This document shows, one piece after another, positions 154 to 15,017 of a stretch of 64,000 bases of DNA. Location: NCBI RefSeq assembly GCF_024700885.2, contig NZ_CP117016.1. One strand, written 5' to 3'. Position 1 is the first letter of the stretch, and every line of letters starts with the position of its first letter. The translations under genes were made by a program, and so were the position numbers. The DNA is from Escherichia coli (GTDB lineage: Bacteria > Pseudomonadota > Gammaproteobacteria > Enterobacterales > Enterobacteriaceae). The notes under the pieces were generated by a model. It saw only the letters and a program-made list of their open reading frames with translations, ran no database searches and was not told the DNA's origin.

Positions 154-1261
<1,108 letters not shown>

Positions 1262-1387
1262 GAAAAAAAACACTCCTTTTCAGGAGCCTGTCGTTAACTT
1301 TTCAGGGCAGGCTCATTAATGATGCGGGTAACTAAATTAATACAGCGGAGGTTCCGCTTTCCAGCACTAATTATATCCGGCCTGTAA

Positions 1388-1419
1388 TAAAAAAACCGCC
1401 GCCTGGTCAGGCGGCGGTT
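1388..1419 (-). terminator. Rho-independent terminator downstream of fkpA
   Basis: Inverted repeat aaccgccgcc / ggcggcggtt; on the minus strand the hairpin is followed by a T-run. Lies just 3' of the fkpA stop. Confidence 0.7.
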
Positions 1420-1427
1420 CTTAATGC

Positions 1428-2240
1428 TTATTTTTTAGCAGAATCTGCGGCTTTCGCATCAGCTTCCGGCTTTGCATCAGCCTTCGGCGCTGGTTTCACA
1501 TCCAGCAGCTCTACGTCAAACACCAGGGTAGAATTCGGTGGGATCCCCGGAACACCCGCTTTGCCGTAAGCCAGTTCTGGTGGAATAACCAGTTTGATCT
1601 TACCGCCTTTCTTGATGTTCTTCAGACCTTCTGTCCAACCCGGAATAACACCGTCCAGACGGAAAGAGAGCGGTTCACCACGGGTGTAAGAGTTGTCGAA
1701 CTCTTTACCGTCGATCAGCGTACCTTTGTAGTTCACGACAACAGTATCGCTGTCTTTCGGTGCTTCGCCTTTACCGGCTTCGACTACCTGATAAACCAGA
1801 CCAGTTGAAGAGGTTTTCACACCTTTCTCTTTGGCAAATTTCTCGCGGTACTCTTTACCTTTCACTTCGTTATCTGCCGCGTCTTTTTCCATCTTCGCCT
1901 GAGCAGAAGACTTCACGCGAGCTTCGAATGCTTGCAGTGTCTGTTCGATCTCTTGGTCGGAGAGTTTGCTCTTATCAGCAAATGCATCCTGAACACCAGC
2001 GATCAGCTGATCTTTATCCAGTTTGATGCCCAGTTTTTCTTGTTCTTTAAGAGAATTTTCCATGTAACGACCCAGCGAAGCACCCAGTGCATAAGCTGAT
2101 TTCTGATCGTCATTTTTGAACGCTGCTTTGCTGTCAGCAGTTGTAGCAGGTTTTGCAGCTTCAGCAGCAAAAGTGATCGGTGCATGCAGGGCAACGGCCA
2201 TTGTGGTCGCCAGCAGCGTTACTTTAAACAGTGATTTCAT
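1428..2240 (-). CDS. fkpA: FKBP-type peptidyl-prolyl cis-trans isomerase FkpA (periplasmic), 270 aa
   Basis: Translation has a signal-peptide-like N-terminus (MKSLFKVTLLATTMAVALHAPITFA) and an FKBP domain (VVVNYKGTLIDGKEFDNSY...LVFDVELLDV); matches remembered FkpA. Confidence 0.95.
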   Translation of the reverse strand: MKSLFKVTLLATTMAVALHAPITFAAEAAKPATTADSKAAFKNDDQKSAYALGASLGRYMENSLKEQEKLGIKLDKDQLIAGVQDAFADKSKLSDQEIEQTLQAFEARVKSSAQAKMEKDAADNEVKGKEYREKFAKEKGVKTSSTGLVYQVVEAGKGEAPKDSDTVVVNYKGTLIDGKEFDNSYTRGEPLSFRLDGVIPGWTEGLKNIKKGGKIKLVIPPELAYGKAGVPGIPPNSTLVFDVELLDVKPAPKADAKPEADAKAADSAKK

Positions 2241-2460
2241 CCATATCTCCAGGATCGGGGCATCTCACCCCAGGGTTAACTATTATCAGAAGGGTACTAT
2301 AAAGCGTTGTCGAACAAATCTACATACAGACACGCCCTATTATCATCTATTTTCAGACTCTTTTTGTTTAAATTAGTTTCGATGACCGCGAAATGAGTGC
2401 TGTCTCGGGCAGCAAAGTTAAGTAGAATCCGCGGCGACCATTCGACAAAAGAGGTGAATC

Positions 2461-2679
2461 ATGCAGGATTTATCATTTGAAGCACGCCTGGCAGAGCTGG
2501 AGAGCCGACTGGCTTTTCAGGAAATCACCATTGAAGAACTGAACGTCACGGTGACCGCTCATGAAATGGAGATGGCGAAACTGCGCGATCATCTGCGTCT
2601 GCTGACCGAGAAGCTAAAAGCCAGCCAGCCGTCGAACATCGCGTCGCAGGCTGAAGAAACGCCACCGCCACATTATTGA
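2461..2679 (+). CDS. slyX: SlyX, small coiled-coil protein, 72 aa
   Basis: Translation [28 protein letters not shown]... matches remembered SlyX; divergent from fkpA. Confidence 0.9.
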
Positions 2680-2684
2680 GGCGT

Positions 2685-2712
2685 AAAAAAAGCGGGGATT
2701 CCCCGCTTTTTT
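2685..2712. terminator. Bidirectional rho-independent terminator shared by convergent slyX and slyD
   Basis: aaaaaaagcggggattccccgcttttttg: a perfect hairpin flanked by an A-run on one side and a T-run on the other. Confidence 0.8.
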
Positions 2713-2727
2713 GTCACTTTTTCGGTA

Positions 2728-3318
2728 TTAGTGGCAACCGCAACCGCCGTTACCTTTACCGCCGCAGCAGCCTTCGCCACCGTGTTCATGACCGTGATCG
2801 TGGCCATGACCACCGCAGCAACCGTCGTGGTCGTGATCGTGGTGATGATCGTGCGCACCGTGAACGTGGCCATGAGCCAGTTCTTCTTCAGTCGCTTCGC
2901 GAATCGCCACAACTTCAACGTTGAATTTCAGGTTCTGACCGGCCAGCATGTGGTTACCATCAACCACGACGTGATCGTCTTCAACCGCAGTGATTTCAAC
3001 CGGTACCGGACCCTGGTCAGTTTCAGCCAGGAAACGCATACCTACCTGCAGTTCATCAACGCCCATAAATACGTCTTTAGGAACGCGTTGCACCAGGTTT
3101 TCGTCGTACTGACCGTAAGCGTCGTTCGCGCCAACAGCGACATCAAATTTGTCGCCAACTTCGTGACCTTCCAGCGCCGTTTCCAGGCCAGAGATCAGGG
3201 AACCGTGACCATGCAGGTAGTCCAGCGGCGCACTCACCGGAGACTCATCAACCAACACACCGTCTTCTGTACGTACCTGATAGGCCAGGCTGACCACCAG
3301 GTCTTTTGCTACTTTCAT
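2728..3318 (-). CDS. slyD: FKBP-type PPIase / metallochaperone SlyD, 196 aa, with His/Cys-rich C-terminal tail
   Basis: Translation MKVAKDLVVSLAYQVRTEDGVLVDESP... ending HGHVHGAHDHHHDHDHDGCCGGHGHDHGHEHGGEGCCGGKGNGGCGCH; matches remembered SlyD. Confidence 0.95.
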   Translation of the reverse strand: MKVAKDLVVSLAYQVRTEDGVLVDESPVSAPLDYLHGHGSLISGLETALEGHEVGDKFDVAVGANDAYGQYDENLVQRVPKDVFMGVDELQVGMRFLAETDQGPVPVEITAVEDDHVVVDGNHMLAGQNLKFNVEVVAIREATEEELAHGHVHGAHDHHHDHDHDGCCGGHGHDHGHEHGGEGCCGGKGNGGCGCH

Positions 3319-3412
3319 GATATCTCCTGAGCATGGGAAGAATAGTGGCGCAGATTGTAGCGGAATTCTGCAGCCGTGTACTCACTAGCTTAAAAAAACT
3401 CGGCGCATATCG

Positions 3413-3613
3413 CTAGTCCGGATGAAAAATCCCGATCACTTGCTCATCTTTGCGAACGTGATCGCGGGCTTCTTTGTCCGCTTCTCGCATCTGATGTCCG
3501 CACTTAACACATTCAACAATATCAATATTATTTTCGCGCCACATCGCCATTGAATCCTGCGCCTGACAGGCCGGGCATTTTGCCCCCGCAATAAAACGTT
3601 TTCGGATTGCCAT
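3413..3613 (-). CDS. yheV: YheV, small zinc-ribbon-like protein, 66 aa
   Basis: Translation contains two CxxC pairs (CPAC ... CVKC); sits immediately downstream of kefB on the same strand. Confidence 0.8.
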   Translation of the reverse strand: MAIRKRFIAGAKCPACQAQDSMAMWRENNIDIVECVKCGHQMREADKEARDHVRKDEQVIGIFHPD

Positions 3614-3622
3614 CTTTACCCT

Positions 3623-5428
3623 CTACTCAAATTCATCCCAGCCGTCCAGCTGGCGTCGTTCTTGTTGCATTTCACGCTGGAAAATCTCTTCCAGTTCGCG
3701 TCGGGCTTCCCTGGCGCGAGAAATTTGTACGGTGTCGGCATGCATTGGGATGAGCTCCCGCAACATCCGCATATCCAGGCGGCGAAAATGCAGTTGCGCC
3801 CGCTGCGCCTGATGTGGATGCATGCCTAGCGTGACCAGCGTCTTGCGCCCCAGCTCTAACGCACTGGAGAATGTCTCACGAGAAAACTGCGTCACCCCTG
3901 CCTGTAATAACTCATGCGCCTCCACACGTCCGCGCGCTCGCGCAAGAATATGTAAATGCGGAAAGTGCTGCTGGCATATTTCCACCAGTTTCATGGTGTC
4001 TTCCGGCTCATTACAGGTAATGACGATAGACTCAGCGGCCTCTGCACCCGCAGAACGTAAAAGATCTACCTGCGTGGCGTCGCCGTAATAAACTTTGTAG
4101 CCATATTTGCGCATCAGGTTAACGGCACTGATATCCCGCTCCAGCACAGTAATGCGCATTTTATTTGCCATCAGCAAACGACCAATCACCTGACCAAAAC
4201 GTCCAAAGCCCACGACAATGACCTGCGGTTTATCATCGTTGACCCACGGTTTTTCATCCTCTTCTTCCGGTCCGTTAAACTGGCGGGATAGCCATTTATC
4301 TACCAGCTTCATCAGCAGCGGCGTGGTCATCATGGAAAGCGTCACCGTCACCAGCAACAGCGCCATCTGGTCACCCTGGAATAAGCGTTGTGAAGAAGCG
4401 GTAGAAAAGAGCACAAAGGCAAACTCACCGCCCTGACTCAACACGCCAGCAAACTGCATCCGCTCTGAGCTACGCACGCCATACAGTCGCGCCAGCAGAT
4501 ACAGCACGAGAATTTTCACCGCCACCAGCACAACCACAGCTATCACTACCCACAACAGATGGGTATAAAGCACCCCGAGGTTGAGCGACATGCCGACAGA
4601 GATAAAGAACAAACCGAGCAGCAACCCCTTAAACGGATCGATAGCCGTTTCCAGTTCATGGCGATATTCACTTTCCGCCAGCAGCACGCCTGCAATAAAC
4701 GTACCGAGCGCCATCGACAGCCCCAGCGCATCCATAAACAATGCGGAACCCAACACCAGCAGCAACGTCGCGGCGGTGAACACTTCCCGCACGCCAGAAG
4801 CTGCAATAAAGCGGAATACCGGACGCAGTAAATAGCGCCCGCCAATCAGCATGCCGACAAACGCCAGCACCTTCATGCCGATCTTCATCCAGTCGAAATG
4901 TTCGTCTGCCGAACCCGCCAACAACGGCACTAACGCCAGTGCCGGGATCACTGCCAGATCCTGAAACAGCAGAACCGAAAACCCGAGCTGCCCGGATTCG
5001 CTGCGATTCATCCCTTTATCACGCATCAGTTGCAACGCCATTGCGGTTGAGGACATCGCAAGGCCAATACCACCGACCACCGCCGCCTGCCAGGCGAAAT
5101 CCGTCAGCATCAATAATCCCGCCAGCAACGCCGCGCTTAACAGCACCTGTGCCGCACCTACGCCAAAAATCGAACGCCGCAATTGCCAAAGCTTGGAGGG
5201 ATTCAACTCCAGGCCGATGATAAACATCAGGAACACCACGCCGAGTTCCGAAAAGTGGAGGATCTCATCGACGTCGCTAATAAAACCCAGCCCCCACGGG
5301 CCAATTGCAATCCCTGCCAGCAAATATCCCAACACAGCGCCAATACCCAGCCGCGATGCCAGCGGCACCGCAGCCACCGCCGCGAAGAGAAACAACACTC
5401 CTGCGAGTAAAAAATCGGAACCTTCCAT
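3623..5428 (-). CDS. kefB: Glutathione-regulated K+/H+ efflux antiporter KefB, 601 aa
   Basis: Multi-TM N-terminal domain plus C-terminal KTN/Rossmann segment ([17 protein letters not shown]); matches remembered KefB. Confidence 0.95.
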
Positions 5429-5982
5429 CAGCGGCCTCCTGGAGACAGCGGATTTGCCAGCCAGTCACCGTAGGCTCTGGCGTGACTCGCCAGCTCCTGT
5501 GCGCTTTGCCGTCTCGCCCAGTAAATAATGATGGGACTCAACCAATGCATCCGGCACATGCCCGCCGCTAGTTCAAAGGGGCGCAGAACATCGCTCATCG
5601 GGTAGCGATTCAAGGCGTCATAACGGTAAGCACTTTCCGGCTCGCCGGTGGTAATCACGCTACGCCAGTACTTTCCCGCCAGTTGGTTTCCTCCCGGCCC
5701 GCTGGCAAAACCACGGCTTAATACCCGGTCCAGCCACTCTTTCAGTAGCGCCGGGCAGCTATAGGTATAAAGAGGATGCTGAAAGACAATCACCTCGTGC
5801 TCGCGCAGTAATGCCTGCTCACGGGGGATATCAATAAAAAAATCGGGATAGTGCGCGTAAAGGTCGTGCACGGTAACATTGCTGAGCTGCGTGGCCGGTT
5901 TAAGCAGTACCCGGTTTGCCACCGAGTCCTGAGATTCCGGATGGGCATACAGCAGCAAAACTTTCGCTGGCTGAGACATCAT
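5428..5982 (-). CDS. kefG: KefG, ancillary quinone-oxidoreductase-like subunit of the KefB system, 184 aa
   Basis: Translation [20 protein letters not shown]...; stop overlaps the kefB start by 1 nt (translational coupling). Confidence 0.92.
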
Positions 5983-6109
5983 CCCCCTCCCGGTATGGTT
6001 TTTGTGTATAGTCGCTGTTTTGGGCTACCATTGCGCCCGGTGCGGCAGCTCGCCCATACATTACATTATCATAATGATAAGTTAACATAGTCTGAACATA
6101 CGGCACCTT

Positions 6110-8023
6110 ATGATTGTTTTCTCCTCGTTACAAATTCGTCGCGGCGTGCGCGTCCTGCTGGATAATGCCACCGCCACCATCAACCCCGGGCAGAAAGTCG
6201 GCCTGGTGGGTAAAAACGGCTGTGGTAAATCTACCCTGCTGGCATTGCTGAAAAATGAACTCAGCGCCGACGGCGGCAGCTACACCTTTCCGGGAAGCTG
6301 GCAACTGGCGTGGGTGAATCAGGAAACGCCGGCGTTACCGCAAGCAGCGCTGGAATATGTCATTGACGGCGACCGTGAATATCGCCAACTGGAAGCGCAG
6401 CTACGCGACGCCAACGAACGTAACGACGGGCACGCCATTGCGACCATTCATGGCAAGCTGGATGCTATTGACGCATGGAGTATTCGCTCCCGCGCCGCAA
6501 GTCTGTTGCACGGCCTCGGTTTCAGCAATGAACAACTCGAGCGTCCGGTAAGTGATTTCTCCGGTGGCTGGCGTATGCGTCTTAACCTTGCCCAGGCGCT
6601 GATTTGCCGTTCAGACTTGCTGCTGCTCGACGAACCGACTAACCACCTCGATCTCGATGCCGTTATCTGGCTGGAAAAATGGCTGAAGAGCTATCAGGGC
6701 ACGCTGATCCTGATCTCTCACGACCGCGATTTCCTCGATCCGATCGTCGATAAAATTATTCATATCGAACAACAAAGCATGTTCGAGTACACCGGCAACT
6801 ACAGTTCGTTTGAAGTACAGCGCGCCACCCGTCTGGCGCAGCAACAAGCGATGTACGAAAGCCAGCAGGAACGCGTGGCGCATCTGCAAAGTTATATCGA
6901 CCGTTTCCGTGCCAAAGCCACCAAAGCGAAGCAGGCCCAGAGCCGTATTAAGATGCTGGAGCGTATGGAGCTGATTGCCCCCGCGCACGTCGACAACCCG
7001 TTTCGTTTTAGCTTCCGCGCGCCGGAAAGCCTGCCTAATCCGTTATTAAAGATGGAAAAAGTCAGCGCAGGCTATGGTGATCGCATTATTCTCGACTCGA
7101 TTAAACTGAATCTGGTGCCCGGCTCGCGCATTGGTCTGTTAGGCCGCAACGGCGCGGGTAAATCGACATTAATCAAACTGTTAGCTGGCGAACTTGCGCC
7201 AGTCAGCGGTGAAATTGGTCTGGCGAAAGGGATCAAGCTCGGCTACTTCGCCCAGCATCAACTGGAATACCTGCGCGCCGACGAATCGCCTATTCAACAT
7301 CTGGCACGTTTAGCGCCGCAGGAACTGGAACAAAAACTGCGTGACTACCTCGGCGGCTTTGGTTTCCAGGGCGATAAAGTGACGGAAGAAACGCGCCGCT
7401 TTTCCGGTGGGGAAAAAGCCCGCCTGGTGCTGGCATTAATCGTCTGGCAGCGTCCGAATCTGCTGCTGCTCGACGAACCGACCAACCACCTTGACCTCGA
7501 CATGCGTCAGGCACTCACCGAAGCATTAATCGAGTTCGAAGGCGCGCTGGTTGTCGTCTCGCACGACCGTCATTTGCTGCGTTCCACCACTGACGATCTC
7601 TACCTGGTTCACGATCGTAAAGTCGAACCGTTCGACGGCGATCTGGAAGATTATCAACAGTGGTTGAGCGACGTACAAAAGCAGGAAAACCAGACCGACG
7701 AAGCGCCAAAAGAGAACGCAAACAGCGCCCAGGCACGTAAAGATCAGAAGCGTCGGGAAGCGGAGCTGCGTGCGCAAACCCAACCGCTGCGTAAAGAGAT
7801 CGCCCGTCTGGAAAAAGAGATGGAAAAGCTGAACGCACAGCTGGCGCAGGCGGAAGAGAAACTCGGCGACAGCGAACTGTACGATCAAAGCCGTAAAGCA
7901 GAACTGACCGCCTGCCTGCAACAGCAAGCCAGCGCCAAATCCGGCCTGGAAGAGTGCGAAATGGCGTGGCTGGAAGCCCAGGAGCAGCTTGAGCAGATGC
8001 TGCTGGAAGGCCAAAGCAACTGA
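6110..8023 (+). CDS. yheS: ABC-F family ATPase YheS (two ABC cassettes, no transmembrane domain), 637 aa
   Basis: Two Walker A motifs (GKNGCGKST, GRNGAGKST) and two signature/Walker B regions (LSGGWRMR...LLLLDEPTNHLD twice), then a charged coiled-coil C-terminal tail. Confidence 0.93.
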   Translation: MIVFSSLQIRRGVRVLLDNATATINPGQKVGLVGKNGCGKSTLLALLKNELSADGGSYTFPGSWQLAWVNQETPALPQAALEYVIDGDREYRQLEAQLRDANERNDGHAIATIHGKLDAIDAWSIRSRAASLLHGLGFSNEQLERPVSDFSGGWRMRLNLAQALICRSDLLLLDEPTNHLDLDAVIWLEKWLKSYQGTLILISHDRDFLDPIVDKIIHIEQQSMFEYTGNYSSFEVQRATRLAQQQAMYESQQERVAHLQSYIDRFRAKATKAKQAQSRIKMLERMELIAPAHVDNPFRFSFRAPESLPNPLLKMEKVSAGYGDRIILDSIKLNLVPGSRIGLLGRNGAGKSTLIKLLAGELAPVSGEIGLAKGIKLGYFAQHQLEYLRADESPIQHLARLAPQELEQKLRDYLGGFGFQGDKVTEETRRFSGGEKARLVLALIVWQRPNLLLLDEPTNHLDLDMRQALTEALIEFEGALVVVSHDRHLLRSTTDDLYLVHDRKVEPFDGDLEDYQQWLSDVQKQENQTDEAPKENANSAQARKDQKRREAELRAQTQPLRKEIARLEKEMEKLNAQLAQAEEKLGDSELYDQSRKAELTACLQQQASAKSGLEECEMAWLEAQEQLEQMLLEGQSN

Positions 8024-9045
8024 TGGCGCAGATAACGACGACCGATGCCAATGAATTCAGCAGCAGTGCTGAATTCACCCCTATGCGCGGCTTTAGCAAT
8101 TGTCATCTACAAACCATGCTGCCGCGTCTGTTTCGTCGCAAGGTGAAATTCACCCCGCACTGGCAGCGACTGGAGTTGCCCGACGGCGATTTTGTCGATC
8201 TCGCGTGGAGTGAAGATCCTGCACAGGCGCGGCATAAACCGCGTTTAGTCGTGTTTCACGGGCTCGAAGGCAGTCTCAATAGCCCTTACGCCCACGGTCT
8301 GGTTGAGGCGGCGCAAAAGCGTGGCTGGCTGGGCGTGGTGATGCATTTTCGCGGATGCAGCGGTGAACCAAACCGTATGCACCGCATTTACCATTCGGGC
8401 GAAACCGAAGACGCCAGTTGGTTTTTACGCTGGCTGCAACGCGAATTTGGTCATGCGCCAACGGCTGCCGTCGGCTATTCGCTCGGCGGAAATATGCTGG
8501 CCTGTTTGCTGGCAAAAGAAGGTAATAACCTCCCGATTGATGCAGCGGTAATTGTCTCCGCGCCATTTATGCTGGAGGCCTGTAGTTACCATATGGAAAA
8601 GGGCTTTTCCCGCGTTTATCAGCGTTACTTGCTGAACCTGTTAAAAGCCAATGCCGCGCGCAAGCTGGCAGCCTACCCCGGAACGCTGCCGATTAATCTC
8701 GCGCAGTTAAAATCGGTACGTCGCATCCGTGAATTTGACGATCTCATCACCGCCAGAATTCACGGCTACGCTGACGCTATCGACTATTATCGTCAGTGTA
8801 GCGCCATGCCGATGCTCAATCGGATAGCCAAACCGACGCTGATTATTCACGCCAAAGACGATCCGTTTATGGATCATCAGGTGATCCCGAAACCGGAAAG
8901 TCTCCCCCCGCAGGTGGAGTATCAGCTGACTGAACATGGCGGTCATGTTGGCTTTATTGGCGGTACATTACTTCATCCACAAATGTGGCTGGAGTCACGC
9001 ATTCCTGACTGGTTAACAACGTATCTGGAGGCGAAATCATGTTGA
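8023..9045 (+). CDS. yheT: Alpha/beta-fold hydrolase YheT, 340 aa
   Basis: GYSLGG nucleophile-elbow motif in the translation; start overlaps the yheS stop by 1 nt. Confidence 0.9.
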
Positions 9046-9257
9046 TTCCGTGGCAAGACCTCTCCCCCGAAACGCTGGAAAATTTAATTGAAAGCTTTGT
9101 GTTACGTGAAGGCACCGATTATGGTGAACATGAGCGTACACTTGAACAGAAAGTCGCCGACGTCAAACGCCAGCTACAGTGCGGAGAAGCGGTGCTGGTA
9201 TGGTCGGAGCTGCACGAAACGGTCAATATCATGCCGCGCAGTCAGTTTCGCGAATAA
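9039..9257 (+). CDS. yheU: YheU, small protein of unknown function, 72 aa
   Basis: ORF overlaps the yheT 3' end by 7 nt; translation [20 protein letters not shown]... matches remembered YheU. Confidence 0.85.
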
Positions 9258-9310
9258 CCTGCAACCGTCGGCGGACGAGATAATAATGATAGCTAAGTCA
9301 TGGAGTTACT

Positions 9311-10180
9311 ATGTCTGCCAAACATCCGGTCATTGCGGTAACAGGATCTAGCGGCGCGGGGACCACCACCACCAGCCTCGCGTTTCGTAAAATATTCGCG
9401 CAGTTAAATCTGCATGCAGCCGAGGTGGAAGGCGACAGTTTTCACCGTTACACCCGCCCGGAAATGGACATGGCGATCCGCAAAGCGCGCGACGCCGGGC
9501 GGCATATCAGCTACTTCGGCCCCGAAGCGAACGACTTTGGCCTGCTGGAACAAACCTTCATTGAATATGGTCAGAGCGGCAAAGGGAAATCTCGCAAATA
9601 TCTGCATACCTACGATGAAGCCGTACCGTGGAATCAGGTACCGGGGACATTCACCCCCTGGCAACCTTTACCGGAACCCACTGATGTACTGTTTTATGAA
9701 GGTTTACACGGCGGCGTAGTCACGCCACAGCATAACGTTGCGCAGCATGTGGACTTACTGGTCGGCGTGGTGCCTATCGTTAACCTTGAGTGGATTCAAA
9801 AACTGATCCGCGACACCAGCGAGCGCGGGCACTCACGAGAAGCAGTGATGGACTCGGTAGTGCGCTCAATGGAAGACTATATCAACTACATCACACCGCA
9901 GTTTTCCCGCACCCATCTTAACTTCCAGCGCGTTCCCACCGTCGACACTTCAAACCCGTTCGCGGCAAAAGCTATCCCGTCGCTGGATGAAAGCTTTGTG
10001 GTGATCCATTTTCGTAATCTGGAAGGGATCGATTTCCCCTGGCTGCTGGCGATGTTGCAAGGCTCATTCATTTCCCACATCAATACGTTAGTGGTACCGG
10101 GCGGCAAAATGGGTCTGGCAATGGAATTAATTATGCTGCCGCTGGTGCAACGATTGATGGAAGGAAAGAAAATCGAGTAA
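9311..10180 (+). CDS. prkB: Phosphoribulokinase-homologous P-loop kinase PrkB, 289 aa
   Basis: N-terminal P-loop (VTGSSGAGTTT); translation matches remembered PrkB. Confidence 0.9.
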   Translation: MSAKHPVIAVTGSSGAGTTTTSLAFRKIFAQLNLHAAEVEGDSFHRYTRPEMDMAIRKARDAGRHISYFGPEANDFGLLEQTFIEYGQSGKGKSRKYLHTYDEAVPWNQVPGTFTPWQPLPEPTDVLFYEGLHGGVVTPQHNVAQHVDLLVGVVPIVNLEWIQKLIRDTSERGHSREAVMDSVVRSMEDYINYITPQFSRTHLNFQRVPTVDTSNPFAAKAIPSLDESFVVIHFRNLEGIDFPWLLAMLQGSFISHINTLVVPGGKMGLAMELIMLPLVQRLMEGKKIE

Positions 10181-10234
10181 CTTTGCTATTACGCCGGATA
10201 AAATACTATCCGGCTTCACAATGGGATAGTTAAA

Positions 10235-10639
10235 TCACGCGGCAACCACTTCATACGAGTGAGTAATATTCACCGCTTTTTCCAGCATCAACGCCACTGA
10301 ACAATATTTCTCGGCAGAGAGATCTACCGCACGCGCAACCGCTGCGTCTTTCAGGTCGCGACCGGTGACGATAAAATGCAGATTAATGTGCGTAAACAGG
10401 CGTGGTGCCTCTTCGCGGCGTTCAGAGGTCAATTTTACTTCACAATCGACCACATCCTGACGCCCTTTTTGCAGAATAGAAACCACATCGATGGCACTGC
10501 AACCACCCGCCGCCATCAACACCATTTCCATCGGACTTGGTGCTTTATCACCAGAGTTACCGTCCATTAAAATCTGGTGACCAGAGGCGGATTCGCCCAG
10601 AAAAGTTAACCCTTCGACCCACTTCACTCGCGCTTGCAT
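10235..10639 (-). CDS. yhfA: OsmC/Ohr-family protein YhfA, 134 aa
   Basis: ORF track 10235..10648; I chose the internal ATG (MQARVKWVEG...) from the remembered 134-aa length. The start codon is uncertain by 3 codons. Confidence 0.82.
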   Translation of the reverse strand: MQARVKWVEGLTFLGESASGHQILMDGNSGDKAPSPMEMVLMAAGGCSAIDVVSILQKGRQDVVDCEVKLTSERREEAPRLFTHINLHFIVTGRDLKDAAVARAVDLSAEKYCSVALMLEKAVNITHSYEVVAA

Positions 10640-10649
10640 TTTTGCCACT

Positions 10650-10943
10650 CCACTGCATCAAATTTATTCACAGCGTACGCGTACTGAGCAAATCGCGCAA
10701 CAGAAGGCGACCTGAGTCAAGCTGAAGCGAGACACCAGGAGACACACGGCGAAAGCTATGCTAAAACAGTCAAGATGCTACAGTAATACATTGATGTACT
10801 GCATGTGTGTAACGGACTTCACATAACAGATGCAGTACGTATTTGACAGCCTCTTCCCAGATAGCGGGAAGCACATTTCGGCAATCCAGAGACAGCGGCG
10901 TTTTCTGGCTCTGGAGAAAGCTTATAACAGAGGATAACCGCGC
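10650..10943. promoter_or_regulatory. crp / yhfA divergent promoter region, including a CRP-like autoregulatory site near 10805-10826
   Basis: 294-bp intergenic region. tgtaacggacttcaca approximates TGTGA-N6-TCACA, about 120-140 bp upstream of the crp ATG, consistent with the known downstream autoregulatory CRP site. Exact promoter hexamers not resolved. Confidence 0.5.
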
Positions 10944-11576
10944 ATGGTGCTTGGCAAACCGCAAACAGACCCGACTCTCGAATGGTTCTTGTCTCATTGC
11001 CACATTCATAAGTACCCATCCAAGAGCACGCTTATTCACCAGGGTGAAAAAGCGGAAACGCTGTACTACATCGTTAAAGGCTCTGTGGCAGTGCTGATCA
11101 AAGACGAAGAGGGTAAAGAAATGATCCTCTCCTATCTGAATCAGGGTGATTTTATTGGCGAACTGGGCCTGTTTGAAGAGGGCCAGGAACGTAGCGCATG
11201 GGTACGTGCGAAAACCGCCTGTGAAGTGGCTGAAATTTCGTACAAAAAATTTCGCCAATTGATTCAGGTAAACCCGGACATTCTGATGCGTCTGTCTGCA
11301 CAGATGGCGCGTCGCCTGCAAGTCACTTCAGAGAAAGTGGGCAACCTGGCGTTCCTCGACGTGACGGGCCGCATTGCACAGACTCTGCTGAACCTGGCAA
11401 AACAACCGGATGCTATGACTCACCCGGACGGTATGCAAATCAAAATTACCCGTCAGGAAATCGGTCAGATTGTCGGCTGTTCTCGTGAAACCGTGGGACG
11501 CATTCTGAAGATGCTGGAAGATCAGAACCTGATCTCCGCACACGGTAAAACCATCGTCGTTTACGGCACTCGTTAA
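10944..11576 (+). CDS. crp: cAMP receptor protein CRP, 210 aa
   Basis: Translation [28 protein letters not shown]... with C-terminal HTH ([20 protein letters not shown]); matches remembered CRP exactly. Confidence 0.98.
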
Positions 11577-11586
11577 TCCCGTCGGA

Positions 11587-11620
11587 GTGGCGCGTTACTG
11601 AGTAGCGCGCCATTTTGTTT
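11587..11620 (+). terminator. Rho-independent terminator of crp
   Basis: tggcgcg ttactgagtag cgcgcca hairpin followed by ttttgttt, 10 bp after the crp stop. Confidence 0.7.
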
Positions 11621-11626
11621 CCCCAG

Positions 11627-13717
11627 ATGTGGCGCAGGCTGATTTATCACCCCGATATCAACTATGCACTTCGACAAACGCTGGTGCTATGTTTGCCCGT
11701 GGCCGTTGGGTTAATGCTTGGCGAATTACGATTCGGTCTGCTCTTCTCCCTCGTTCCTGCCTGTTGCAATATTGCGGGCCTTGATACGCCTCATAAACGT
11801 TTTTTCAAACGCTTAATCATTGGTGCGTCGCTGTTTGCCACCTGTAGCTTGCTGACACAGCTGTTACTGGCAAAAGATGTTCCCCTGCCCTTTTTGCTGA
11901 CCGGATTAACGCTGGTACTTGGCGTCACTGCTGAGCTGGGGCCATTGCACGCAAAATTGCTTCCCGCATCGCTGCTCGCCGCCATTTTTACCCTCAGTCT
12001 GGCGGGATACATGCCGGTCTGGGAACCGTTGCTCATCTATGCGTTGGGCACTCTCTGGTACGGATTGTTTAACTGGTTTTGGTTCTGGATCTGGCGCGAA
12101 CAACCGCTGCGCGAGTCACTAAGTCTGCTGTACCGTGAACTGGCAGATTATTGTGAAGCCAAATACAGCCTGCTTACCCAGCACACCGACCCTGAAAAAG
12201 CGCTGCCGCCGCTGCTGGTGCGCCAGCAAAAAGCGGTCGATTTAATTACCCAGTGCTATCAGCAAATGCATATGCTTTCCGCGCAAAATAATACCGATTA
12301 CAAGCGGATGCTGCGTATTTTCCAGGAGGCGCTGGATTTGCAGGAACATATTTCGGTCAGTTTGCATCAGCCGGAAGAGGTGCAAAAGCTGGTCGAGCGT
12401 AGCCATGCGGAGGAAGTTATTCGCTGGAATGCGCAAACCGTCGCCGCTCGCCTGCGCGTGCTGGCTGATGACATTCTTTACCATCGCCTGCCGACGCGTT
12501 TTACGATGGAAAAGCAAATTGGCGCACTGGAAAAAATCGCCCGCCAGCATCCGGATAATCCGGTTGGGCAATTCTGCTATTGGCATTTCAGCCGCATCGC
12601 CCGCGTGCTGCGCACCCAAAAACCGCTCTATGCCCGTGACTTACTGGCCGATAAACAGCGGCGAATGCCGTTACTTCCGGCGCTGAAAAGTTATCTGTCA
12701 CTAAAGTCTCCGGCGCTACGCAATGCCGGACGACTCAGTGTGATGTTAAGCGTTGCCAGCCTGATGGGCACCGCGCTGCATCTGCCGAAGTCGTACTGGA
12801 TCCTGATGACGGTATTGCTGGTGACGCAAAATGGCTATGGCGCAACCCGTCTGAGGATTGTGAATCGCTCCGTGGGAACCGTGGTCGGGTTAATCATTGC
12901 GGGCGTTGCCCTGCACTTTAAAATTCCCGAAGGTTACACCCTGACCTTGATGCTGATTACCACCCTCGCCAGCTACCTGATATTGCGCAAAAACTACGGC
13001 TGGGCGACGGTCGGCTTTACCATTACCGCAGTGTATACCCTGCAACTATTGTGGTTGAACGGCGAGCAATACATCCTTCCGCGTCTTATCGATACTATTA
13101 TTGGTTGTTTAATTGCTTTCGGTGGTACCGTCTGGCTGTGGCCGCAGTGGCAGAGCGGGTTATTGCGTAAGAACGCCCATGACGCTTTAGAAGCCTATCA
13201 GGAAGCGATTCGTTTGATTCTGAGCGAGGATCCGCAACCTACGCCACTGGCCTGGCAGCGAATGCGGGTGAATCAGGCGCATAACACTCTGTATAACTCA
13301 TTGAATCAGGCGATGCAGGAACCGGCATTCAACAGCCATTATCTGGCAGATATGAAACTGTGGGTAACGCACAGTCAGTTTATTGTTGAGCATATCAATG
13401 CCATGACCACGCTGGCACGGGAACACCGGGCATTGCCACCTGAACTGGCGCAAGAATATTTGCAGTCTTGTGAAATCGCCATTCAGCGTTGTCAGCAGCG
13501 GCTGGAGTATGACGAACCGGGTAGTTCCGGCGATGCCAATATCATGGATGCGCCGGAGATGCAGCCGCACGAAGGCGCGGCAGGTACGCTGGAGCAGCAT
13601 TTACAGCGGGTTATTGGTCATCTGAACACCATGCACACCATTTCGTCGATGGCATGGCGTCAGCGACCGCATCACGGGATTTGGCTGAGTCGCAAGTTGC
13701 GGGATTCGAAGGCGTAA
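11627..13717 (+). CDS. yhfK: YhfK, large inner-membrane protein of unknown function (putative efflux-type), about 696 aa
   Basis: ORF track 11615..13717 starts at a TTG; the first ATG (MWRRLIYHPD...) is at 11627. Multiple hydrophobic segments in two blocks separated by a soluble region. Confidence 0.85.
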   Translation: MWRRLIYHPDINYALRQTLVLCLPVAVGLMLGELRFGLLFSLVPACCNIAGLDTPHKRFFKRLIIGASLFATCSLLTQLLLAKDVPLPFLLTGLTLVLGVTAELGPLHAKLLPASLLAAIFTLSLAGYMPVWEPLLIYALGTLWYGLFNWFWFWIWREQPLRESLSLLYRELADYCEAKYSLLTQHTDPEKALPPLLVRQQKAVDLITQCYQQMHMLSAQNNTDYKRMLRIFQEALDLQEHISVSLHQPEEVQKLVERSHAEEVIRWNAQTVAARLRVLADDILYHRLPTRFTMEKQIGALEKIARQHPDNPVGQFCYWHFSRIARVLRTQKPLYARDLLADKQRRMPLLPALKSYLSLKSPALRNAGRLSVMLSVASLMGTALHLPKSYWILMTVLLVTQNGYGATRLRIVNRSVGTVVGLIIAGVALHFKIPEGYTLTLMLITTLASYLILRKNYGWATVGFTITAVYTLQLLWLNGEQYILPRLIDTIIGCLIAFGGTVWLWPQWQSGLLRKNAHDALEAYQEAIRLILSEDPQPTPLAWQRMRVNQAHNTLYNSLNQAMQEPAFNSHYLADMKLWVTHSQFIVEHINAMTTLAREHRALPPELAQEYLQSCEIAIQRCQQRLEYDEPGSSGDANIMDAPEMQPHEGAAGTLEQHLQRVIGHLNTMHTISSMAWRQRPHHGIWLSRKLRDSKA

Positions 13718-13738
13718 TACAGGCTACCTTCGGATACA

Positions 13739-15017
<1,279 letters not shown>

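What the first reader, a model, noticed from the sequence alone, without database searches (positions are those of the whole stretch)
9311..10180. Phosphoribulokinase homologue (prkB) in a genome without a Calvin cycle
The translation has a P-loop (GSSGAGTTT) and PRK-family length, yet E. coli lacks RuBisCO. The gene sits alone between the yheSTU operon and convergent yhfA, next to crp. To my knowledge its substrate is not established.
Basis: partly seen in the sequence, partly recalled or inferred. Interest (0 to 1): 0.3.

Follow-up and report, generated by a model that had tools for sequence, protein, structure and literature searches.

The report
E. coli prkB, orphan phosphoribulokinase gene
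This is the already-annotated E. coli core gene prkB, an intact and strongly conserved copy of the Calvin-cycle enzyme phosphoribulokinase in bacteria that have no RuBisCO; the puzzle of what it is for is real but long known, not a new discovery.

Summary
It is E. coli prkB, present in 5,425 of 5,426 complete E. coli genomes and annotated 'phosphoribulokinase'. It is a full-length class I (bacterial) PRK: 50% identical to the crystallised Rhodobacter sphaeroides enzyme, with a predicted fold of TM 0.89 to 1a7j. Every catalytic and ribulose-5-phosphate-binding residue checked is invariant in 81 of 81 orthologues. These orthologues form one monophyletic clade (100/100 bootstraps) in Enterobacterales, Vibrionales, Aeromonadales and Alteromonadales, with no cbb genes nearby. 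dN/dS is 0.014-0.034, so the gene is neither a relic nor a recent import. The clade has lost three basic residues that are conserved in cbb-linked PRKs (R31, K/R53, R187). This suggests the same chemistry under different regulation. No paper in the searchable library characterises the enzyme. Antonovsky 2016 treats PRK activity as absent in E. coli, and their RuBisCO-expressing cells did not grow without a foreign prk. Best reading: a genuine ATP:Ru5P 1-kinase, expressed or active at low or conditional levels, whose product has an unknown RuBisCO-independent fate. It is a known gene and a known puzzle, so interest is modest.

The parts
9311..10180 (+). prkB coding sequence (289 aa plus stop), class I phosphoribulokinase homologue
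   Evidence: ORF; RefSeq annotation; PF00485 E=1.3e-76; NF011997 525 bits; 1a7j E=1e-93, 50% identity over the full length; AF2 model TM 0.89 to 1a7j
9344..9370 (+). Codons for the P-loop / Walker A GSSGAGTTT (residues 12-20)
   Evidence: Read from the sequence. G12, S13, S14, G15, A16, G17 and T18 are conserved in both the 81 orthologues and the 7 cbb-linked PRKs
9434..9457 (+). Codons D42-R49 (D42, H45, R49), the Ru5P-binding and catalytic loop
   Evidence: 81/81 and 7/7 invariant. The role of Rs His45 is documented in PMC5241800. The roles of D42 and R49 come from memory of the Miziorko-lab mutagenesis work
9698..9700 (+). Codon E130 (Rs E131), Walker B / Mg-ATP ligand
   Evidence: 81/81 and 7/7 invariant; role from memory
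9800..9826 (+). Codons K164-R172 (K164, R167, D168, R172 = Rs K165, R168, D169, R173), the catalytic loop
   Evidence: All 81/81 and 7/7 invariant. K165 and R168 are documented in PMC5241800. The plant-numbered residues Asp160, Arg159 and Arg164 are named as catalytic / Ru5P-binding in bioRxiv 10.1101/422709; mapping them onto Rs D169, R168 and R173 is my inference by homology
9866..9868 (+). Codon S186, a clade signature; the cbb-linked PRKs have Arg here (Rs R187)
   Evidence: S in 81/81 orthologues, R in 7/7 cbb-linked PRKs
9277..9284 (+). GAGATAAT, a candidate -10 element in the yheU-prkB spacer
   Evidence: The equivalent CTATA[CA]T lies 35-70 nt upstream of the ATG in 9 Enterobacteriaceae loci, against 0.6% of background 150-nt windows. 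Function not shown
9302..9305 (+). GGAG Shine-Dalgarno sequence
   Evidence: Read from the sequence. GGAG or GGGAG is conserved at this position across enteric loci
10193..10214 (.). Hairpin GCCGGATA-AAATAC-TATCCGGC between the convergent prkB and yhfA genes; probable bidirectional terminator
   Evidence: RNA fold -20.5 kcal/mol, z = -3.3, 0 of 200 shuffles as stable. GC-rich hairpins sit at the same place in other enterics. It lacks a clear T-run and was not picked up by the terminator scan
8023..9257 (+). yheT (alpha/beta hydrolase) and yheU (UPF0270), conserved upstream neighbours on the same strand
   Evidence: Pfam. Each is present upstream of prkB in 53 of 80 loci. No functional link was shown
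10235..10648 (-). yhfA (OsmC family), convergent downstream neighbour; the only neighbour that also recurs next to prkB in Alteromonadales
   Evidence: Pfam PF02566; present in 54 of 80 loci; found in 14 of 27 loci that lack the enteric gene order

Best explanation
prkB encodes a catalytically competent class I (bacterial-type, probably oligomeric) phosphoribulokinase. Inferred mechanism, by homology to the R. sphaeroides enzyme: MgATP binds at the P-loop (G12-T19) and E130. The 5-phosphate of D-ribulose-5-phosphate is held by H45, R49, Y97/H99, R167 and R172. D42 and D168 with K164 promote transfer of the gamma-phosphate to the C1 hydroxyl, giving ribulose-1,5-bisphosphate. What distinguishes it from Calvin-cycle PRKs is context and control, not chemistry. 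It belongs to a vertically inherited clade found in Enterobacterales, Vibrionales, Aeromonadales and Alteromonadales. That clade is detached from cbb genes and has replaced basic residues that are invariant or conserved in cbb-linked PRKs (R31, K/R53, R187). So it is probably not governed by the NADH-activation / AMP-inhibition logic of autotroph enzymes. In the cell it is most likely expressed or active at a low or conditional level and makes small amounts of RuBP, whose fate is not known (signal, substrate for an unidentified enzyme, or hydrolysis back to Ru5P). Shown: sequence, fold, residue conservation, phylogeny, selection, synteny. Inferred: substrate, product, altered regulation, low activity. 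Unknown: physiological role.
For: Family membership: PF00485 E=1.3e-76; NF011997 equivalog 525 bits against a cutoff of 362, and cbb-linked PRKs score the same model at 486-498 bits. Structure: full-length 50% identity to 1a7j; AF2 model with pLDDT 89.7, TM 0.89/0.93 and rmsd 2.1 A to 1a7j. Active site: D42, H45, R49, E130, K164, R167, D168, R172, R185 and the P-loop are invariant in 81/81 orthologues and 7/7 cbb-linked PRKs; 100 columns are conserved across both groups. Residue roles are documented for Rs His45, Lys165 and Arg168 (PMC5241800) and for the plant-numbered Asp160, Arg159 and Arg164, which I map by homology to Rs D169, R168 and R173 (10.1101/422709). An archaeal homologue with about 30% identity to photosynthetic PRKs (25% to the R. 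sphaeroides enzyme) that keeps these residues phosphorylated only Ru5P among nine substrates. Selection: dN/dS 0.014-0.034; 68-77% identity even to Vibrio and Alteromonadales, higher than YheS, YheT, YheU or YhfA. Vertical inheritance: the clade is monophyletic in 100/100 bootstraps with order-level topology, and GC content is uniform. Detachment from the Calvin cycle: no CbbL, FBPase or Tkt within 10 kb in 80 loci, against FBPase immediately upstream in 6/6 cbb-linked loci. Altered regulation: R31 is R in 7/7 cbb PRKs but Q/M/S/T/H in the clade; K/R53 becomes D/E in 79/81; R187 becomes S in 81/81.
Against: No enzyme assay of E. coli PrkB was found in ten literature searches. Antonovsky 2016 states that PRK activity is absent in E. 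coli. Their evolved RuBisCO-expressing cells did not grow hemiautotrophically when the plasmid lacked the foreign prkA. So chromosomal prkB did not supply usable RuBP flux there; this is compatible with low expression or activity, but also with a different substrate. Fourteen positions are fixed differently between the clade and the cbb-linked PRKs, and some (Y68/H174, S186, H202) could lie near the active site, which I could not check in 3D. No RuBP-consuming enzyme is known in E. coli, so the proposed product has no known sink.
Confidence: 0.7

Rival explanations
1. Neofunctionalised kinase. The clade keeps the PRK scaffold but phosphorylates a different acceptor (another pentulose or heptulose phosphate, or a non-sugar), and so does not make RuBP in vivo.
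For: There are fourteen clade-specific fixed differences, including a reciprocal H69/Y175 to Y68/H174 swap, R187 to S, and D203 to H. No RuBisCO or other known RuBP consumer is present. Chromosomal prkB did not support RuBisCO-dependent growth. The gene has existed outside any cbb context for a long time.
Against: All residues documented or recalled to bind Ru5P or to catalyse transfer are invariant in 81/81. 100 columns are shared with cbb-linked PRKs. The same NCBIfam equivalog model scores both groups alike. PRKs far more divergent (25-30% identity) remain Ru5P-specific. The uridine-kinase models score only 22-28 bits against cutoffs of 180-220.
Confidence: 0.15
2. Non-catalytic or moonlighting role. 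The protein is retained for a regulatory or structural function (for example binding pentose phosphates or nucleotides), and kinase turnover is irrelevant.
For: No PRK activity is attributed to E. coli in the engineering literature. Stable synteny beside the global regulator crp holds across three orders.
Against: Complete conservation of the catalytic Asp/Lys residues and Walker motifs over the whole clade is hard to explain without catalysis. No CRP site or other regulatory feature links it to crp. Synteny with crp is lost in most Alteromonadales while the protein stays at about 70% identity.
Confidence: 0.06
3. Evolutionary relic. The gene is a leftover of an ancestral Calvin cycle with no present function.
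For: The clade is sister to cbb-linked PRKs. RuBisCO is absent.
Against: dN/dS is 0.014-0.034, in the same range as yhfA (about 0.02-0.03) and lower than yheU. The gene is present in 5,425 of 5,426 E. coli genomes and across four orders at 68-99% identity. The intact ORF translates to about 286-299 aa in all 80 loci.
Confidence: 0.02

Closest known systems
Class I (proteobacterial, octameric, NADH-activated/AMP-inhibited) phosphoribulokinase, e.g. Rhodobacter sphaeroides PrkA/CbbP (PDB 1a7j)
   Same: Same length, with 50% identity and no large indels. Same fold, including the C-terminal oligomerisation domain (TM 0.89). Identical P-loop, Walker B, catalytic Asp/Lys and Ru5P-binding residues. 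The same NCBIfam equivalog model matches both.
   Different: It is not in a cbb operon and has no FBPase, transketolase or RuBisCO neighbours. The host has no RuBisCO. R31, K/R53 and R187, which are invariant or conserved in the cbb-linked enzymes, are replaced, and R221, R234 and R257 are only partly kept, so the allosteric behaviour may differ. It forms a separate monophyletic clade.
Other 'orphan' class I PRKs in housekeeping contexts (e.g. marine-metagenome P0126; P0132)
   Same: They are class I PRK homologues of full length (295-296 aa) with no cbb genes within 7 kb. Putative PRKs in heterotrophic prokaryotes are already noted in the literature (10.1101/422709).
   Different: They are only 50-52% identical to PrkB and fall outside the enteric/Vibrio/Alteromonad clade, so they are independent lineages with unknown hosts.
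Class II (plant/cyanobacterial/archaeal, dimeric) PRKs and uridine/pantothenate kinases of the same P-loop superfamily
   Same: They share the P-loop NMP-kinase-like core (Foldseek TM 0.42-0.63; PF00485 covers both PRK and uridine kinase).
   Different: Identity is only 15-22%, and NF005655, udk and NF004018 score far below their cutoffs. The C-terminal domain and quaternary structure differ (PMC5241800).

Membership tests
Class I bacterial phosphoribulokinase (EC 2.7.1.19; PF00485; NCBIfam NF011997) | Sequence matches the curated family models above their thresholds over the full length | tested here: met
   PF00485 257 bits (cutoff 22), profile positions 1-196 of 196; NF011997 525 bits (cutoff 362), positions 1-288 of 290
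Class I bacterial phosphoribulokinase (EC 2.7.1.19; PF00485; NCBIfam NF011997) | Fold of 1a7j, including the C-terminal domain | tested here: met
   AF2 model pLDDT 89.7; Foldseek top hit 1a7j, E=2.5e-38, TM 0.89/0.93, rmsd 2.1 A over 283 columns
Class I bacterial phosphoribulokinase (EC 2.7.1.19; PF00485; NCBIfam NF011997) | Walker A (GSSGAGT[ST]) and Walker B Glu | tested here: met
   Residues 12-19 and E130 are identical to the R. sphaeroides enzyme and invariant in 81/81 orthologues
Class I bacterial phosphoribulokinase (EC 2.7.1.19; PF00485; NCBIfam NF011997) | Catalytic and Ru5P-binding residues (Rs D42, H45, R49, K165, R168, D169, R173) | tested here: met
   All are present in E. coli PrkB and invariant in 81/81 orthologues and 7/7 cbb-linked PRKs. 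Roles are partly documented and partly from memory
Class I bacterial phosphoribulokinase (EC 2.7.1.19; PF00485; NCBIfam NF011997) | ATP-dependent phosphorylation of D-ribulose-5-phosphate to RuBP | not testable with these tools
   No assay was found in the literature. Antonovsky 2016 treats the activity as absent in E. coli
Class I bacterial phosphoribulokinase (EC 2.7.1.19; PF00485; NCBIfam NF011997) | Allosteric activation by NADH and inhibition by AMP; basic residues of the effector site (R31, R221, R234, R257 as recalled from Kung et al. 1999) | tested here: not met
   Only residue conservation could be tested. R31 is Q in E. coli and variable across the clade (Q/M/S/T/H in 77 of 81 sequences; the rest were not tabulated). 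R221 is K, R234 is H and R257 is H in E. coli; all four are R in 7/7 cbb-linked PRKs. The kinetic behaviour itself is untested, and the residue roles are from memory
Class I bacterial phosphoribulokinase (EC 2.7.1.19; PF00485; NCBIfam NF011997) | Homo-octameric quaternary structure | not testable with these tools
Calvin-Benson-Bassham cycle gene set (cbbP role) | Genomic linkage to cbb genes (fbp, tkt, cbbLS/cbbM, cbbR) and presence of RuBisCO in the genome | tested here: not met
   No CbbL, class 1 FBPase or Tkt lies within 10 kb in the 80 orthologue loci or in the 64-kb window. No cbbL-like DNA was found in 5,426 E. coli genomes. By contrast, all 6 cbb-linked loci have fbp upstream
Uridine kinase / pantothenate kinase (other members of the PF00485-related P-loop kinases) | Match to the udk or uridine kinase equivalog models above their cutoffs | tested here: not met
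   NF004018 27.6 bits (cutoff 180); TIGR00235 22.7 bits (cutoff 220)

The most novel reading that the evidence does not exclude
PrkB-type kinases mark an ancient, RuBisCO-independent use of ribulose-1,5-bisphosphate (or a closely related pentulose bisphosphate) in the Enterobacterales-Vibrionales-Aeromonadales-Alteromonadales lineage, a lineage generally regarded as heterotrophic. The product would be either a signalling metabolite reporting pentose-phosphate status or the entry point of a still-unidentified pathway. The kinase would be retuned by loss of the cbb-type basic residues (R31, K53, R187).
Probability: 0.3. Interest if true: 0.6.

Novelty: already known. Interest (0 to 1): 0.25.

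Why it matters
prkB is one of the few enzymes in the best-studied bacterium whose predicted reaction leads to a metabolite with no known consumer. This analysis shows that it is under strong purifying selection and has been inherited vertically across four orders that, on general knowledge, are heterotrophic. So it must do something useful that does not involve CO2 fixation. Working out that role would fill a gap in E. coli central-metabolism maps. It would also inform engineering of synthetic autotrophy, where native Ru5P/RuBP handling matters. It would caution metagenomic studies against using prk/prkB hits as markers of the Calvin cycle. None of this is new as a question, because the gene and the paradox are already recognised.

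Tried and rejected
1. CRP control because of adjacency to crp. No TGTGA-N6-TCACA site (2 mismatches or fewer) is conserved within 400 nt upstream of prkB in 80 loci, and the one E. coli match at -319 is at chance frequency. Rejected.
2. Functional coupling inferred from gene neighbours. yheT and yheU adjacency holds in 53/80 loci but is lost in Alteromonadales. The other recurrent neighbours there (ast/argD genes, the rpsM-rpoA-rplQ operon) look like residual regional synteny. Only the convergent OsmC-like yhfA recurs, in 14/27 loci, and it is not co-oriented. There is no pathway hint.
3. A separate curated family for the enteric clade. NF011997 scores cbb-linked PRKs and PrkB-type proteins alike, so annotation does not distinguish them.
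4. An RpoS link for the CTATACT motif. No paper in the library supports it, so it is kept only as a lead.
5. Literature. Ten searches and 14 papers found no functional study of E. coli PrkB. Many 'prkB' hits were the R. sphaeroides cbbII gene, KEGG labels in metagenomes, or plasmid names such as pRKbarA. Kung et al. 1999 is not held. The y-ome gene table was truncated in storage, so the absence of prkB there is uninformative.
6. The exhaustive 50%-cluster search returned mostly fragments and no names. It was useful only to show that the family is compact.
7. The sigma-70 promoter and terminator scans were at chance level and found nothing between yheU and prkB.
8. Recent horizontal transfer. 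Rejected on uniform GC content and a tree congruent with taxonomy.

Full report
**Observation.** The window holds a single ORF at 9311-10180 on the + strand: ATG start, 289 codons, TAA stop. A GGAG ribosome-binding site lies 5 nt upstream. A 1.7-kb query around it matches 5,425 of 5,426 complete E. coli genomes once each, and the features under the match are annotated yheT, yheU, prkB ('phosphoribulokinase') and yhfA. The stated neighbourhood is correct: kefGB, then yheS-yheT-yheU-prkB on one strand, convergent yhfA, then crp-yhfK.

**What the protein is.** It matches Pfam PF00485 end to end (E=1.3e-76) and NCBI's equivalog model NF011997 'phosphoribulokinase' at 525 bits against a cutoff of 362. 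The uridine-kinase models score only 22-28 bits against cutoffs of 180-220. Among solved structures the best match is the Rhodobacter sphaeroides class I PRK, 1a7j (E=1e-93). The alignment covers residues 1-288 with one single-residue gap and 50% identity. An AlphaFold model (pLDDT 89.7, pTM 0.88) superposes on 1a7j with TM 0.89/0.93 and rmsd 2.1 A. Class II PRKs and uridine or pantothenate kinases trail at TM 0.4-0.63. So this is a class I PRK in sequence and in fold, including the C-terminal domain that Kono et al. associate with oligomerisation in the Rhodobacter enzyme (PMC5241800).

**Active site.** Mapped onto the Rhodobacter numbering, E. coli PrkB keeps D42, H45, R49, E131, K165, R168, D169, R173 and R186. 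The literature held here documents His45 and Lys165 as Ru5P-binding and Arg168 as ATP-binding. It also names, in plant numbering, a catalytic Asp160 with Arg159 and Arg164 as Ru5P-binding (10.1101/422709); I map these by homology to Rs D169, R168 and R173. The roles of D42, R49 and E131 are from my memory of the Miziorko-lab mutagenesis papers. The same paper by Kono et al. showed that an archaeal homologue keeping these residues, with about 30% identity to photosynthetic PRKs (25% to the R. sphaeroides enzyme), phosphorylated only Ru5P out of nine P-loop-kinase substrates. That makes retention of specificity at 50% identity the parsimonious expectation.

**Distribution, selection and history.**
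- The word-indexed search shows 83-99% identity throughout Enterobacterales.
The best 80 are Enterobacterales, Aeromonas, Vibrio/Photobacterium/Salinivibrio, Shewanella, Colwellia, Pseudoalteromonas, Idiomarina, Thalassotalea, Rheinheimera and relatives, at 68-99% identity. From general knowledge these are heterotrophic lineages; whole-genome absence of RuBisCO was tested only for E. coli.
- At the Vibrio/Alteromonad distance PrkB (68-77%) is better conserved than YheS, YheT, YheU or YhfA; only CRP is better.
- Within Enterobacteriaceae dN/dS is 0.014-0.034. That is lower than yheU, about the same as yhfA, and above crp.
- A neighbour-joining tree with cbb-linked and unnamed class I PRKs recovers these 28 sampled orthologues as one clade in 100 of 100 bootstraps. 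The internal branching follows the orders, and the clade is sister to the cbb-linked enzymes.
- GC content is flat across the locus.
- The gene is therefore an old, vertically inherited, selectively maintained resident. It is neither a relic nor a recent import.

**Detachment from the Calvin cycle.**
- Six PRKs taken from annotated replicons of CO2-fixers lie directly downstream of a class 1 FBPase. Most are flanked by transketolase, RuBisCO, cbbX or cbbR. The replicons are from Azoarcus, Bradyrhizobium, Sinorhizobium, Paracoccus, Eleftheria and a 'Mycobacterium' plasmid.
- None of the 80 orthologue loci, nor the 64-kb window, has CbbL, FBPase or Tkt homologues within reach.
- A cbbL gene finds nothing in 5,426 E. 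coli genomes at blastn sensitivity. This is a weak test on its own. It is consistent with Antonovsky et al. 2016, who list RuBisCO and PRK as the two CBB activities absent from E. coli.
- Two further unnamed class I PRK lineages also sit in housekeeping contexts, and Gurrieri et al. already remark that putative PRKs occur in heterotrophic prokaryotes. So the phenomenon is general and already recognised.

**What differs from cbb-linked PRKs.** I compared 81 orthologues with 7 cbb-linked sequences column by column.
- 100 columns are conserved in both groups, and 14 are fixed differently.
- The fixed differences include R187 to S (81/81 against 7/7), a reciprocal H69/Y175 to Y68/H174 swap, D203 to H, Q273 to E and G109 to N.
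- R31 is invariant in the cbb-linked set but Q/M/S/T/H in the clade.
- K/R53 becomes D/E in 79/81.
- R221 becomes K in 70/81.
- R234 and R257 are kept in roughly half of the clade (46 and 45 of 81; H in 35 and 24), and both are His in E. coli.
- As I recall Kung et al. 1999, R31, R221, R234 and R257 belong to or communicate with the NADH/AMP effector site.
- The tool-based statement stands on its own: the clade keeps the catalytic core and has shed several basic residues that are invariant or conserved in Calvin-cycle enzymes.
- NCBI's equivalog model does not distinguish the two groups.

**Transcription and neighbours.**
- prkB follows yheU by 53 bp on the same strand. No terminator-like site lies between them, and one group treats yheT, yheU and prkB as co-cistronic with yheS.
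- In 9 Enterobacteriaceae loci a CTATA[CA]T element lies 35-70 nt before the ATG, against 0.6% of background windows. The window has GAGATAAT at 9277-9284. In Hafnia about 2 kb is inserted between yheU and prkB. An independent promoter is therefore likely as well.
- A stable hairpin at 10193-10214 separates prkB from convergent yhfA.
- No CRP-type site is conserved upstream.
- The order yheT-yheU-prkB-(yhfA)-crp is kept in Enterobacterales, Aeromonas and Vibrio. Only the OsmC-like yhfA recurs beside prkB in Alteromonadales. I could extract no pathway hint from the neighbours.

**Mechanism and rivals.** I commit to a genuine ATP:D-ribulose-5-phosphate 1-phosphotransferase with altered regulation and low or conditional activity (confidence 0.7 for the chemistry).
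- The main counter-evidence is functional. In Antonovsky's evolved, RuBisCO-expressing E. coli, a plasmid lacking the foreign prkA did not support hemiautotrophic growth. Native prkB therefore does not deliver substantial RuBP there.
- That result fits weak expression or activity. It also leaves room for a changed substrate (0.15) or a non-catalytic role (0.06).
- A functionless relic (0.02) is excluded by the selection data.
- The physiological role stays open. E. coli has no known consumer of RuBP, and no downstream enzyme is suggested by gene context.

**Novelty and verdict.**
- the size and monophyly of the clade;
- the strength of selection;
- the intact active site;
- the specific lost basic residues;
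- the likely dual transcription.

Interest is 0.25. It would rise to about 0.6 if RuBP, or a related bisphosphate, proves to have a RuBisCO-independent function in these bacteria.

Noticed in passing
window 9311-10234, minus strand; candidate site at 10015: An mBio 2026 paper (PMC13170351) reports a TadA-dependent A-to-I editing event in an antisense transcript called 'prkB-as'. On the minus strand one of four TACG sites (the A at window 10015) lies in UUACGAA, close to the tRNA-Arg2 anticodon loop as I recall it, between TCCA and TGGA arms. The transcript could be read-through from the convergent yhfA gene.
   Followed up: partly
window 9277-9284; L004, L005, L006, L007, L011, L012, L014, L015, L054 at 35-70 nt upstream of prkB: A conserved CTATA[CA]T element lies in the yheU-prkB spacer of Enterobacteriaceae (GAGATAAT in this window). 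The C preceding TATACT resembles a sigma-S-type -10 element as I remember it. No literature support was found.
   Followed up: partly
window 8023 and 9039-9045: The yheS stop overlaps the yheT start by 1 nt, and yheT overlaps yheU by 7 nt. This suggests translational coupling within yheSTU, in contrast to the 53-bp gap before prkB.
   Followed up: no
L018 (Hafnia paralvei) 7989-10001; L021 (Serratia silvae) 10867-14403: About 2 kb is inserted between yheU and prkB in Hafnia, and about 3.5 kb between prkB and yhfA in Serratia silvae. The otherwise rigid enteric gene order can therefore be interrupted on either side of prkB.
   Followed up: no
PLSDB records NZ_CP141089.1 (E. coli, 4.94 Mb) and NZ_OL790812.1 (Proteus mirabilis, 4.09 Mb): Two 'plasmid' records that carry prkB are chromosome-sized, so they appear to be chromosomes mislabelled as plasmids in the plasmid collection. 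The single 'plasmid' place in the E. coli genome search may have the same cause; I did not check that record.
   Followed up: no
L087 (NZ_CP012886.2, 'Mycobacterium intracellulare' plasmid) 387-6885: A 437-kb plasmid assigned to a Mycobacterium carries a cbb-like cluster (pgk, gap, fba, fbp, prk). Its PRK is the closest relative outside the clade, at 60% identity to E. coli PrkB. This is a class I, proteobacterial-type PRK on a replicon assigned to an actinobacterium.
   Followed up: no
proteins P0001 (377 aa) and P0008 (429 aa): Near-identical PrkB sequences appear fused to extra Pfam domains: PF12338 in P0001, and PF13309 plus PF08348 in P0008. Each is a single-member cluster and probably an assembly or gene-calling chimera.
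   Followed up: no
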